Assembly: GCA_965217895.1 (NCBI GenBank)
Contig: CBDCJV010000002.1
Location: forward strand, 960,001-1,024,000
DNA length: 64,000 nucleotides
From: Waterburya sp.
Lineage (GTDB): Bacteria; Cyanobacteriota; Cyanobacteriia; Cyanobacteriales; Xenococcaceae
Direction of reading: 5' to 3'
Below the pieces are notes generated by a model, which saw only the letters and a program-made list of their open reading frames with translations, was not told the origin of the DNA and did not search any database. The translations under genes were made by a program, and so were the position numbers. Numbering within the stretch: position 1 is the stretch's first letter; each line of letters opens with the position of its first letter. This document shows, piece by piece, positions 41,654 to 44,392 of this stretch.

Positions 41654-42094
41654 GACCGTAAATTGACACTGATTTTGGTCTTTGAGCTTCAAAAAGCACA
41701 TTATTGTTTACTGTTTCTAAAGCTTTAGTTAAATTATTCTCTGCGATCGCTATAAAAAACTGTTCGACAGGATTATACATAACTAAATTTATATTTTATA
41801 GCCAAATTAGCAGGTCATGTAATGTCAGGAAAAACTAGTCTAAGTAAGAGCGATCGCATCCCTTCTTTTGACTCAGCCTCAATTTACCTCTAACCAAATA
41901 TTTACAAGTGAGGTTTCTGCTTCAAACTTTGTGTAGGAGTACAGAGAATTTAGCTAGGTATTAATTCTGTTTAAGCACTTACCGATCTGAGATTAAATAA
42001 AATTTGAATATTGAAGCCTCAATGTCAAAACTAAGTTGGCTGAATTTTGTACGTTTTTACTTGGTCATTTGCTTTCGCACTCAAGTAAGCTGCC

Positions 42095-42607
42095 TTAATT
42101 CTTTTCATTGACTCTATCTTGGCAGCTTTGGCTTTTGTATCTTGGTGTTGTGATTTCATAACCTAGATTTTCCTCACCTAAGTTTTCTGTAATACTAAAT
42201 TGTAACTCAGTAAGATACATTTTGGCTAGCCTACCGTAGAATTTTTTCAATTTGAAGTTTTCGGCAGTAAATAAATAGGCTTCGGCATTGCTGTTTAAGT
42301 AGTGAAACTCTACCACATCTCTAACAATCTTACCCAAAAATCTCATTTCGACAATTGAAAGGAATTTCTTGGGTGGCTTATAATAATCTCCTGATTCAAA
42401 ATTAGCTTGCAAATCAAACTTAACAATAAAACTATTTGGTTTATAAGTTATTCCCAAATCGCTAGACTTTTCTTCTATCGTTAAGGAATCGTACAGATCG
42501 TTAACAGGGTTGAATAACATCAAGTATTCTACCTTAAACACCTCAAATCTAATGATTTGACCGCTTATATTTTCATAATTAAAGTCTTCTAGTTGCCAAC
42601 TGCTCAA
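42095..42607 (-). CDS. uncharacterised protein in the RiPP operon (possible divergent GNAT-like fold)
   Basis: 170 aa; TTG start with AGGAG RBS; begins 47 bp after the ATP-grasp stop; LKKFYGRL resembles GNAT motif B. Confidence 0.7.
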   Translation of the reverse strand: MSSWQLEDFNYENISGQIIRFEVFKVEYLMLFNPVNDLYDSLTIEEKSSDLGITYKPNSFIVKFDLQANFESGDYYKPPKKFLSIVEMRFLGKIVRDVVEFHYLNSNAEAYLFTAENFKLKKFYGRLAKMYLTELQFSITENLGEENLGYEITTPRYKSQSCQDRVNEKN

Positions 42608-42653
42608 TTAATCAATTCTCCTTTTTATTGATTAGTGGGCAACGTAGCTCTGC

Positions 42654-43568
42654 TTATGTTGTTAAAAAATTTATAACAGCTTCAAATAAACCATTATTTC
42701 CTGATAAATCAAGCCATGCCCATTGTCCATTGGGATTTACTTCAAGAAACGTGGTATTTTGACAGTTTTTATCTTTTGTCATTAAATCAAGTCTTCCAAA
42801 TCTTAAACCTAAATCACGCATGAAATAATCGATATTTGTTGAAAGCTCAACGGGAAGTTCTACTTTTTCCCAACTACTATCCACAAGCGGAGTTCCAATT
42901 GCCTGTCTCCAATCCAAACCATTTAAAAGATTACGGTCAAGTACAAACCCATATTGTTGCCCATCTAAATAAACAACAGTTAAGTCGTAATCATTATCAA
43001 CCTTCTCCTGAATAAACCATGTCCAACCATCGTCAAGTTCTTCAGGGTTAACTGCACTTGTATAAATAACCTTTGCAGGTGTGCCAGTACCAGTAATAGG
43101 TTTCCCAGTAACACTTTTAATAATCCAGTTTTTACTTTTCCAATTTTTGCTACTAGGTTGTGATGTAAATGCCCAGGGTGAAACCTGCAAATACCTACTC
43201 GCTACTCGAAGTTGATAGAACTTATCAATCGTAGTATTGTAGTGTGGATCTATGGGTATCTTGCAAGGGTTTTCTCTGCGAACCCATGAGATAATTGATT
43301 GAACAGCGTTCTTAAATTCCTGGAAGCAATACCAAACTTCACCTGGTTCAGTAGGAACTTCAAAAACAGGTTTTCTCCAAATTATATTGTCTAGTGTTGT
43401 GTCGCTAATTTCTCGACCAAATTTATCTGCAATCCAGAAGCCAGAGTCGTGAATTTCAATATCGTATTCTTGCCAACGTTCCCAATTTACACGAAGAACA
43501 TTATTGGAAAGCCTTTCACAAATTAAATCACTTGTTACATCTCCACTAGAGGTAATAAGCAGGTGCAT
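42654..43568 (-). CDS. ATP-grasp RiPP maturase (MvdC/MvdD-like graspetide ligase)
   Basis: LLITSSGDVT, IWRKP, DKFYQLRVA, IIKSV, FIQEKV, LDWRQ, LGLRFGRLD, FLEVNPNGQWAWL. Confidence 0.92.
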   Translation of the reverse strand: MHLLITSSGDVTSDLICERLSNNVLRVNWERWQEYDIEIHDSGFWIADKFGREISDTTLDNIIWRKPVFEVPTEPGEVWYCFQEFKNAVQSIISWVRRENPCKIPIDPHYNTTIDKFYQLRVASRYLQVSPWAFTSQPSSKNWKSKNWIIKSVTGKPITGTGTPAKVIYTSAVNPEELDDGWTWFIQEKVDNDYDLTVVYLDGQQYGFVLDRNLLNGLDWRQAIGTPLVDSSWEKVELPVELSTNIDYFMRDLGLRFGRLDLMTKDKNCQNTTFLEVNPNGQWAWLDLSGNNGLFEAVINFLTT

Positions 43569-43586
43569 AAGAACTTTTTAGTAATA

Positions 43587-43675
43587 GTGAGACGACACTC
43601 AATAATAGTCAAAAGTATAAAAGGTGTCATCTCACAAACGTCTTGATTTTTTAAATTGAGTAATAAGAATTACTC
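43587..43675 (-). promoter_or_regulatory. two stem-loops between precursor and ligase genes
   Basis: GAGTAAT/ATTACTC (43658-43675) and a 12-bp stem GTGAGATGACAC/GTGTCGTCTCAC (43587-43635) whose single mismatch is G-U on the minus strand. Confidence 0.55.
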
Positions 43676-43681
43676 TTCACA

Positions 43682-43879
43682 TTAATCAGCATCGCTATCA
43701 TATGGCTTACCGCTGCCATCGAAAGTCTGAGTGCTTCTTGACATTTCCAATCCATGAGTATTGGCATAGTCTTTGCTGACACCATACTGTAATTTAGAGT
43801 CGTACTTTGGTAATGCCGAGATATCGAATGAAGGAGGAGTCTTAGCAAATACAATTGGGGATTGTTTTTGTTGGTTCAT
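43682..43879 (-). CDS. graspetide precursor peptide (65 aa)
   Basis: Directly upstream of the ATP-grasp gene; leader with PIVFAK and YDSKLQ; C-terminal Ser/Thr cluster followed by DxDxD (SRSTQTFDGSGKPYDSDAD). Confidence 0.85.
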   Translation of the reverse strand: MNQQKQSPIVFAKTPPSFDISALPKYDSKLQYGVSKDYANTHGLEMSRSTQTFDGSGKPYDSDAD

Positions 43880-44020
43880 TTGAGTTTTTACTTAAAAATT
43901 AACCACTTCATAATATATTTAAAACTATGAATAGTCCTCTGAGTTTCCACGGATTCTTGAAGGGAAAATTTTAGAACCTAATTTTAAAATAAGTAAATAA
44001 GTATTTACTGCCAAACAAAA

Positions 44021-44275
44021 TTATTTACAGTTTTGTAGTTCTAAATGCCCTCTATTAGTTAGTTGGCATCCACAGTAAAACGTCCTTGGTTCAATACCAT
44101 CAGGATAAGGAGTAGCTTGTATATAGTCCTCATTTTTAAGTTGTTCAATACTATCTCTAACAACATATTCATTTAAACCAGTGCTTTCTATTATGCTATG
44201 GCAATCAGATTGTTCATTACCAATAGCTTTAAGTATTTGACACTGTTGATTTGTTATCTGCATATTCAACTCCAA
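44021..44275 (-). CDS. small winged-helix-like protein
   Basis: Q..ILKAI...I.ESTGL....V...IEQL....YI ... LTNRG pattern typical of wHTH domains. Confidence 0.55.
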   Translation of the reverse strand: MELNMQITNQQCQILKAIGNEQSDCHSIIESTGLNEYVVRDSIEQLKNEDYIQATPYPDGIEPRTFYCGCQLTNRGHLELQNCK

Positions 44276-44392
44276 ACTTTTAGTTTTCTATCTTAGTGTT
44301 CCCCCTATGATTATTTTTCTTACTAATCTTTAGAATTGTGGCGATCGCCTTATCTCAATTAGAATACTTATATTCCTCCTCCTTGCAAATAA

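What the first reader, a model, noticed from the sequence alone, without database searches (positions are those of the whole stretch)
42095..44275. Compact non-microviridin graspetide (omega-ester peptide) RiPP locus: wHTH, precursor, single ATP-grasp ligase, unknown 170-aa protein
Seen: four co-oriented minus-strand genes inserted between lepB and a purine deaminase. The 304-aa protein carries MvdC/MvdD-type motifs (WRKP, KxxQL, QEKV, DWR, FLEVNPNGQWAW), and the 65-aa ORF just upstream ends in a Ser/Thr cluster followed by DxDxD. Established: ATP-grasp RiPP ligases cross-link Ser/Thr/Lys side chains to Asp/Glu in a short upstream precursor. The characteristic cyanobacterial graspetides are microviridins, with a TxKYPSD core, paired ligases and often an ABC transporter or acetyltransferase. 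This locus has none of those hallmarks: one ligase, no TxKYPSD, no transporter or protease. I saw no HIP1 site between about 41860 and 44340, although HIP1 is frequent elsewhere. Inference: a horizontally acquired graspetide system making a probably uncharacterised macrocyclic peptide.
Basis: partly seen in the sequence, partly recalled or inferred. Interest (0 to 1): 0.9.

Follow-up and report, generated by a model that had tools for sequence, protein, structure and literature searches.

The report
Uncatalogued graspetide branch, relocated active-site arginine
A small mobile gene cassette in a cyanobacterium probably makes a ring-stapled peptide, using an enzyme from a large, apparently uncatalogued branch in which an arginine essential in the studied relatives is missing and another appears at a different spot.

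Summary
The four genes and motifs are real. The 304-aa protein is a graspetide-type ATP-grasp ligase: its model matches all nine solved graspetide-ligase entries (Z 20.4-24.5) above RimK, Ddl and GshB. 63 of 65 related loci carry a short precursor just upstream, against 34 of 1787 control sites; the nearest share the core QT[FY]DxxGxPxD, not found in two published catalogues (one seen only in part). New point: this branch (218 sequences, mostly metagenomic) has Thr/Ser where 99 canonical synthetases have the arginine matching PsnB Arg213, and an invariant Arg in FGRxD where those have small residues; none of 327 rows has both. I infer the catalytic arginine moved. The mobile unit is HTH-like gene + precursor + ligase (two metagenomes, one sister genome); the 170-aa GNAT-like gene is a separable neighbour. 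Horizontal gain is supported by distribution, not by the HIP1 gap. No activity or product is shown; the complex prediction never ran. Verdict: new variant of a known kind, interest 0.6.

The parts
42654..43568 (-). 304-aa graspetide-type ATP-grasp ligase of the 'Thr197/Arg259' branch
   Evidence: TIGR04187/04185/04192/04184 hits at 52-90 bits, all far below cut-off, no Pfam hit; model pLDDT 95; best structural matches MdnC, AMdnB, PruB, CdnC, MdnB, PsnB; 17 synonymous vs 9 non-synonymous codons among the differences shown for two metagenome copies
42978..42980 (-). codon for Thr197, the position of the canonical carboxylate-binding Arg (E/D-x-R; PsnB Arg213 by indirect mapping)
   Evidence: Arg in 5 of 5 aligned solved graspetide ligases and in 99 canonical rows; Thr/Ser in 218 branch rows
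42792..42794 (-). codon for Arg259 in FGRxD, proposed replacement arginine
   Evidence: Arg in all 218 branch rows, Ala/Cys/Ser/Val/Gly in 98 canonical rows and a gap in 1
43682..43879 (-). 65-aa precursor: leader with conserved P8, P15, Y26, Q31; C-terminal core
   Evidence: alignment of 21 precursors; 63 of 65 loci have such an ORF upstream
43685..43741 (-). predicted core (residues 47-65); invariant Q51, T52, G57, P59, D61; S/T49 and D65 in 19 of 21
   Evidence: the leader/core boundary is inferred
44021..44275 (-). 84-aa (80 from the ATG) HTH-like protein; travels with the pair in close relatives, not found in distant loci
   Evidence: weak Pfam HTH hits; linked in G017 and runs X3, X4, X5; 0 of 80 metagenome loci
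42662..44307 (-). three-gene mobile unit (HTH-like + precursor + ligase)
   Evidence: contigs of runs X3 and X4 (two studies) match 42662-44307 at about 93% and run on into unlike DNA at both ends; G017 matches 42652-43078 and 44024-44295 in another context
42095..42607 (-). 170-aa GNAT-like protein; separable neighbour, probably a passenger
   Evidence: GNAT folds fill the top structural matches, best Z 8.6, model pLDDT 69.5 in 1 of 5 models; 6 homologs at 70-79%; 0 of 80 ligase loci; absent beside the ligase in X3, X4, G017
41850..41915 (+). HIP1 plus about 60-bp element marking the left edge of the variable slot
   Evidence: same element lies about 100-120 bp from the right-hand HIP1 in G024 and G051 (near-empty slots); two more copies elsewhere in this genome
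44341..44348 (+). HIP1 marking the right edge; similarity to the deaminase region of relatives starts here

Best explanation
A mobile cassette encodes a graspetide (omega-ester peptide) pathway of an uncatalogued branch. The ligase binds the precursor's leader, uses ATP to phosphorylate Asp side chains of the core and lets Thr/Ser hydroxyls attack them, giving nested lactones on a hairpin that turns at D54-x-x-G57-x-P59: most likely Thr52-Asp61 (both invariant) and Ser49-Asp65, perhaps Thr50-Asp63 here (loss of 2-3 waters). The carboxylate/acyl-phosphate-binding role played by Arg213 in PsnB is taken over by Arg259 of FGRxD (possibly helped by Arg212). No dedicated protease or exporter travels with it; the leader is removed by a host protease or kept. 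The HTH-like gene is a likely local regulator; the GNAT-like gene is a passenger. Shown: fold, gene pairing, conserved donors/acceptors, the residue swap, mobility. Inferred: chemistry, ring pairing, role of Arg259, processing. Biological role is the weakest step: protease inhibition by analogy with microviridin and plesiocin, about 25%.
For: Fold: nine graspetide-ligase entries rank first (Z 20.4-24.5), RimK 17.2, Ddl 15.6 or less, GshB 15.1 (same order by Foldseek). All 68 aligned relatives hit graspetide-maturase HMMs and no other NCBIfam family at E<=0.001. K116, K151, Q187, D261, E276, N278 and DWR are kept in 92-100% of branch rows; the PsnB paper shows the D(F/W)R loop is required. Pairing: 63 of 65 loci vs 34 of 1787 controls; donor T52 and acceptor D61 in 21 of 21. 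Swap: 218 T(S)/R vs 99 R/non-R, none R/R, 10 fragments unscorable; the two sets are the two sides of one branch with six diagnostic columns removed (190 vs 96 rows, support 99). Precedent for Arg binding the acyl-phosphate mimic in an ATP-grasp enzyme: DdlB Arg255 (PMC5717164); that it sits two residues before the Mg-binding Asp, like Arg259, is recalled. Purifying selection: 17 of 26 changed ligase codons synonymous vs 20% of possible changes (from the 40 of 252 difference rows shown).
Against: No activity, product or transcript data. The residue shown to be critical in PsnB (R213A loses ATP turnover and cyclisation) is missing at its position; the match of Thr197 to PsnB Arg213 is indirect, and the spatial closeness of 197 and 259 was not measured on coordinates. 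The precursor matches no Pfam or NCBIfam precursor model (1 of 21 members hits TIGR04186 weakly, E 0.0047) and has no double-glycine site, protease or transporter. Only T52 and D61 are invariant, so ring number is uncertain. Two related copies are broken by deletions (G017, X5), so the cassette is often dispensable.
Confidence: 0.72

Rival explanations
1. The branch modifies the same peptide but with different chemistry because its active site is rewired: for example amide formation from an Asp or the C-terminal carboxylate to an amine (backbone, N-terminus or small molecule) rather than Thr/Ser lactones.
For: Loss of the Arg213-type residue plus branch-specific W184, R212, R259, N280, D287; Arg placement recalls amide-forming Ddl (position recalled); most precursors end in or near Asp, and Gln51 is invariant.
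Against: Invariant hydroxyl donor T52 upstream of invariant D61, and S/T-rich then D-rich cores in all precursor types, is the pattern of lactone-forming graspetides; fold nearest to graspetide ligases.
Confidence: 0.13
2. A four-gene pathway: the 170-aa GNAT-like protein acetylates the peptide (as in microviridin maturation) or is a required partner of the ligase (as MirC for rosaritide).
For: GNAT-like fold; 47 bp behind the ligase, same strand, strong ribosome-binding site; run X5 holds pieces of both genes, on separate contigs; precedent in PMC13097080.
Against: 0 of 80 related loci; three close copies end at the ligase stop without it (X3, X4, G017); model confidence moderate and best Z 8.6 is near the background for this search.
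Confidence: 0.08
3. The cassette is silent or decaying cargo in this strain and makes nothing.
For: Two independent deletions removing the precursor in relatives; sporadic distribution.
Against: All reading frames and catalytic residues intact here; near-identical intact ligase copies in two other studies with mostly synonymous differences.
Confidence: 0.07

Closest known systems
Graspetide synthetases with solved structures: MdnC/MdnB/AMdnB (microviridin, group 1), PsnB (plesiocin, group 2), CdnC, PruB
   Same: Fold over the whole length (Z 20.4-24.5); ATP/Mg residues and D(F/W)R loop; adjacent short precursor with hydroxyl donors before acidic acceptors.
   Different: 16-25% identity; Thr instead of the E/D-x-R arginine and Arg instead of Ala in G-x-x-D; different leader and core; single ligase, no transporter or protease.
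Actinobacterial TIGR04186/TIGR04187 pair (GRASP_targ / GRASP_SAV_5884)
   Same: Best HMM for the ligase (89.8 bits); precursor then single ligase; a Y-D-x-x-x-Q-like leader element and a T..T...D..D core; 1 of 21 precursors hits TIGR04186 weakly.
   Different: Score far below the 350-bit cut-off; canonical members keep Arg197; profile comparison with one such precursor from a viral contig is not significant.
Legionella precursors filed under group 8 in Carter et al. 2026 (core TTKQTFDxxGxWD)
   Same: Closest core text found in the catalogue: QTFDxxG followed by Asp residues.
   Different: Double-glycine leader without the YDxxxQ element, W instead of P-x before Asp; the one Legionella ligase examined (L142, group not established) has the canonical Arg.
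CPR Branch 1 loci of Makarova et al. 2022 (signature TxxxTx(6-10)Dx(1-4)D)
   Same: The core here fits that loose signature if Ser counts as donor; uncultured hosts; diverse cores on one enzyme branch.
   Different: None of ten motifs from this branch's precursors found a matching precursor in that paper's readable supplements; no cluster-23 or peptidase neighbours here; their enzyme sequences could not be read.
D-Ala-D-Ala ligase (DdlB)
   Same: Arg255 binds the acyl-phosphate mimic (PMC5717164); a G-R-x-D strand is recalled for Ddl.
   Different: Much weaker fold match (Z 15.6 or less); likeness of one residue only, read as convergence.

Membership tests
Graspetides (class) | ATP-grasp ligase of the graspetide-synthetase type | tested here: met
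Graspetides (class) | Adjacent short precursor, co-conserved, with Ser/Thr/Lys donors and Asp/Glu acceptors in the core | tested here: met
   63 of 65 loci vs 34 of 1787 controls; T52 and D61 in 21 of 21
Graspetides (class) | ATP/Mg-binding residues and D(F/W)R loop intact | tested here: met
   loop requirement
Graspetides (class) | ATP-dependent side-chain ester/amide rings in the product | not testable with these tools
   needs mass spectrometry
Described graspetide synthetase groups (PsnB-type active site) | Conserved Arg213-type arginine, reported across enzymes of 12 groups | tested here: not met
   Thr197; (PsnB numbering mapped indirectly)
Described graspetide groups 1-43 / 174 families | Precursor core listed in the catalogues | tested here: inconclusive
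   no matching precursor by motif search, but about 700 ungrouped rows of Carter 2026 were cut and Ramesh 2021 and Lee 2020 were not read
Microviridins (group 1) | TxKYPSD core and PFFARFL leader | tested here: not met
   motif definitions
Microviridins (group 1) | MvdC and MvdD ligases at family score, usually paired | tested here: not met
   77.5/425 and 52.5/475 bits; one match only in the genome
TIGR04186/TIGR04187 actinobacterial pair | Ligase reaches the TIGR04187 cut-off; precursor matches TIGR04186 | tested here: not met
   89.8/350 bits; window precursor no hit, 1 of 21 relatives E 0.0047
Partner-dependent graspetides (rosaritide type) | Strictly co-occurring partner gene | tested here: not met
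   170-aa 0 of 80 and 84-aa 0 of 80 loci; many loci are short contigs
RimK / LysX / GshB / Ddl housekeeping ATP-grasp ligases | Family HMM match and closest fold | tested here: not met
   no such NCBIfam hit in 68 of 68 members; these folds are listed but rank below all graspetide ligases
GNAT acetyltransferases (170-aa protein) | GNAT fold with acetyl-CoA-binding motif | tested here: inconclusive
   fold-level matches only, Z up to 8.6, no Pfam hit; CoA motif not examined

The most novel reading that the evidence does not exclude
This is the first sighting of a second catalytic architecture among graspetide synthetases: a deep branch of hundreds of enzymes, missed by Pfam and curated cut-offs, whose relocated arginine changes what is activated or joined, so that it makes linkages or ring shapes not known from any described group, on at least four unrelated core types.
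Probability: 0.15. Interest if true: 0.85.

Novelty: new variant of a known kind. Interest (0 to 1): 0.6.

Why it matters
New graspetide groups are common (43 groups in 2026), so one more core would be modest. What lifts this one is the enzyme branch: at least 190 near-full-length sequences that lack a residue shown to be essential in PsnB and described as conserved across the class, with a strictly complementary arginine elsewhere. It gives a sharp, cheap test of how these macrocyclases recognise and activate the acceptor carboxylate (R259A; T197R/R259A swap-back), a source of new multi-ring peptide scaffolds from a two-gene minimal system, and a diagnostic two-residue signature for mining a branch that Pfam does not detect. 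This genome offers an intact member on a near-complete chromosome, whereas most relatives are short metagenome contigs.

Tried and rejected
HIP1 absence as proof of foreign origin: rejected; GC is lower in the slot (34.2% vs 39.1%), mild support only. lepB as leader peptidase of the pathway: rejected, opposite strand and unlinked in relatives. 170-aa gene as conserved member: rejected; profile search of 400 phylum genomes gave only one stop-interrupted match at E 7e-4. RimK-type enzyme: rejected. ESM Atlas named grasp-with-SPASM clusters as look-alikes: the one such enzyme fetched has the canonical Arg (L141) and the HMM score is 58.9/230. Viral loci L089-L095 are canonical-type, not members. 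No member among plasmid or phage records: only one weak canonical hit each. Ligase-precursor complex prediction: no verdict, the job was never queued. Direct residue alignment to PsnB could not be displayed. No RNA holder listed. Promoter scan at chance level, 14 vs 10.4 +/- 3.1; no terminator found. HTH-like protein: no homolog found with this query. Full-text search for four motifs gave 4 unrelated papers. Earlier scan notes: none by sequence or relatives; three other graspetide cassettes by words, none of this branch by their descriptions. Ramesh 2021 not held.

Full report
Observation. HIP1 sites at 41850 and 44341 bound the stretch, but 327 of 5797 HIP1 gaps on the chromosome are at least as long, so the gap alone says little.

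The ligase. It hits four graspetide-maturase HMMs at 52-90 bits against cut-offs of 230-475, and no Pfam family (5 further relatives also none). All 68 aligned relatives hit such models and no other NCBIfam family at E<=0.001. The AlphaFold model (pLDDT 95.1) ranks all nine graspetide-ligase PDB entries first (Z 20.4-24.5), then RimK 17.2, LysX/ArgX, Ddl and GshB (Foldseek agrees). The best relatives are 63% identical or less and mostly from metagenomes; a profile search of 1.84 billion representatives gave 386 at E<=1e-30, of which the best 150 were listed.

The precursor. In the 80 metagenome loci kept (of 307 confirmed), 65 have at least 330 bases upstream of the ligase; 63 of these carry a 35-110-aa ATG ORF with an S/T-rich then D-rich end, 51 distinct C-termini, against 34 of 1787 control anchors (the two misses show precursor-like ORFs just outside my limits). 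I set the rule after seeing the loci, so the contrast is descriptive. In 21 hand-picked precursors of the window's type Y26, Q51, T52, G57, P59 and D61 are invariant; S/T49 and D65 are in 19 of 21. The same enzyme branch also carries at least three other precursor types. No gene downstream is shared across the branch.

The arginine swap. In the five solved graspetide ligases whose alignments were displayed, the strand after the QE motif reads E/D-x-R and the strand before the Mg-binding Asp reads G-A-x-D; here they read D-L-T and G-R-L-D. Over 327 aligned rows, 218 have Thr/Ser197 with Arg259, 99 have Arg197 with Ala, Cys, Ser, Val, Gly or (one) a gap at 259, none has both, and 10 fragments cannot be scored. 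The 99 include cyanobacterial MvdC/D, actinobacterial, grasp-with-SPASM, Legionella, Xylella, Bacillus, archaeal and phage enzymes, but many are near-copies, one gene is counted twice, and all were found by likeness to this branch or to one outgroup protein, so they do not cover all 43 groups. The two sets fall on two sides of one branch (67 vs 35 rows, SH-aLRT 100, quick search; 190 vs 96 rows with six diagnostic columns removed, support 99, fragments left out); the trees are unrooted. The PsnB preprint (10.1101/2021.03.09.434688, passages read) shows Arg213 binds the ring-forming carboxylate, is needed for ATP turnover and cyclisation, and is conserved in enzymes of 12 groups. That Thr197 matches Arg213 is indirect: it is the only invariant Arg of canonical enzymes between the QE motif and D(F/W)R, it lies 22 residues before that motif against 20 in PsnB, and alignment end points put it at chain position 233-234 of 7drm, which is 213-214 given a tag of about 20 residues (recalled). 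Positions 197 and 259 both lie in strands of the model; that these strands are neighbours is inferred from the fold and the strict complementarity, not measured. DdlB uses Arg255 to bind the phosphorylated intermediate mimic (PMC5717164, passages); its place two residues before the Mg-binding Asp is recalled. Arg212 (86% of the branch) is a second candidate.

Mobility and limits of the unit. Among 38 other genomes of the genus only G017 has part of the cassette: HTH-like gene joined to the ligase's last 140 codons through a short near-repeat, in another context, with no 170-aa gene. Contigs from two metagenome studies hold 42662-44307 at about 93% identity with unlike DNA on both sides; in one of them 75 bases spanning the precursor's end are replaced; a third run holds a second, different deletion plus pieces of the 170-aa gene on separate contigs. 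Of the 40 of 252 difference rows shown, the ligase changes are 17 synonymous to 9 non-synonymous codons. In 400 other genomes drawn from the phylum no precursor match was found; 39 had ligase matches, all at 156 bits or less against 432 here, and all those fetched (29 loci) were canonical. The slot upstream of the deaminase is nearly empty in G024 and G051 and holds other genes elsewhere. So horizontal gain is well supported, by distribution. The 170-aa protein has a GNAT-like fold of moderate confidence, six homologs at 70-79%, and is in none of the 80 loci.

Mechanism. Most likely: leader binding, ATP-dependent Asp phosphorylation with Arg259 holding the carboxylate, attack by Thr/Ser, giving nested lactones T52-D61 and S49-D65 (perhaps T50-D63) around a DxxGxP turn. 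The general chemistry and hairpin topology are from Carter 2026; the pairings are my inference from conservation. Processing and export are not encoded; the biological target is unknown, protease inhibition being the analogy.

What is in print. Makarova 2022 (PMC8939145): abstract, Results parts 1-4 of 5, and motif searches of 11 supplementary files, which include precursor sequences; no matching precursor; its enzyme alignment and trees could not be read. Carter 2026 (PMC13097080): abstract, Introduction, two Results sections, motif searches of the precursor table; nearest were group-8 Legionella cores; the table is cut at about row 20,900 of 21,584 (my estimate), the missing rows being ungrouped entries with high genome coordinates, which could include this locus, and its PDF and zip were too large. 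PMC11626197: passages, groups 1 and 2 only. Ramesh 2021 not held; Lee 2020 not read. Paper searches showed, from listings, nothing on such a branch or swap. Novelty is therefore likely but not proven.

Verdict. A real graspetide-type cassette that works like known graspetide systems but is not a member of any described group tested; new variant of a known kind; interest 0.6.

Noticed in passing
window 41850-44348; L106:1397-1508, L107:1380-1508, G000:C2:3626224-3629183: The slot upstream of the deaminase is variable across the genus and bounded by HIP1 plus a 60-bp element; rmuC occupies it in several relatives, while here rmuC lies at 3.63 Mb beside copies of the same element and 89 bp like the deaminase upstream region, among small toxin-antitoxin-like genes. 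Suggests HIP1-edged shuffling.
   Followed up: partly
L017-L029: Same ligase branch with longer precursors (about 91-98 aa) holding a hydrophobic Ala-rich stretch and a QTSS...DD-NN core.
   Followed up: no
L049-L086 (many): Same branch with very short precursors (41-46 aa) starting MTPNDIAT and ending DD-x-x-x-W, with highly variable cores.
   Followed up: no
L039-L046, L055: Low-GC members, some from human-gut assemblies by record name, with a DDWR-ending precursor and a 540-aa membrane protein gene downstream that looks like an ABC exporter; the only sub-group seen with a likely transporter.
   Followed up: no
L001:1280-1972 (= G017, L003); run X5: Two independent deletions remove the precursor and the first part of the ligase while keeping the HTH-like gene.
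   Followed up: partly
window 42095-42130: The 170-aa protein is 11 residues longer than five of its six homologs (159 aa), with an unrelated tail.
   Followed up: no
L007:634-2062 (G015): A different, canonical-type graspetide ligase with a 143-aa upstream ORF ending in a T/S-rich, DDCG tail in a genome of the same genus.
   Followed up: no
L089, L091-L093, L095: A small clade of canonical-type ligases (G-C-F-D) on viral contigs for which my rule found no upstream precursor.
   Followed up: no
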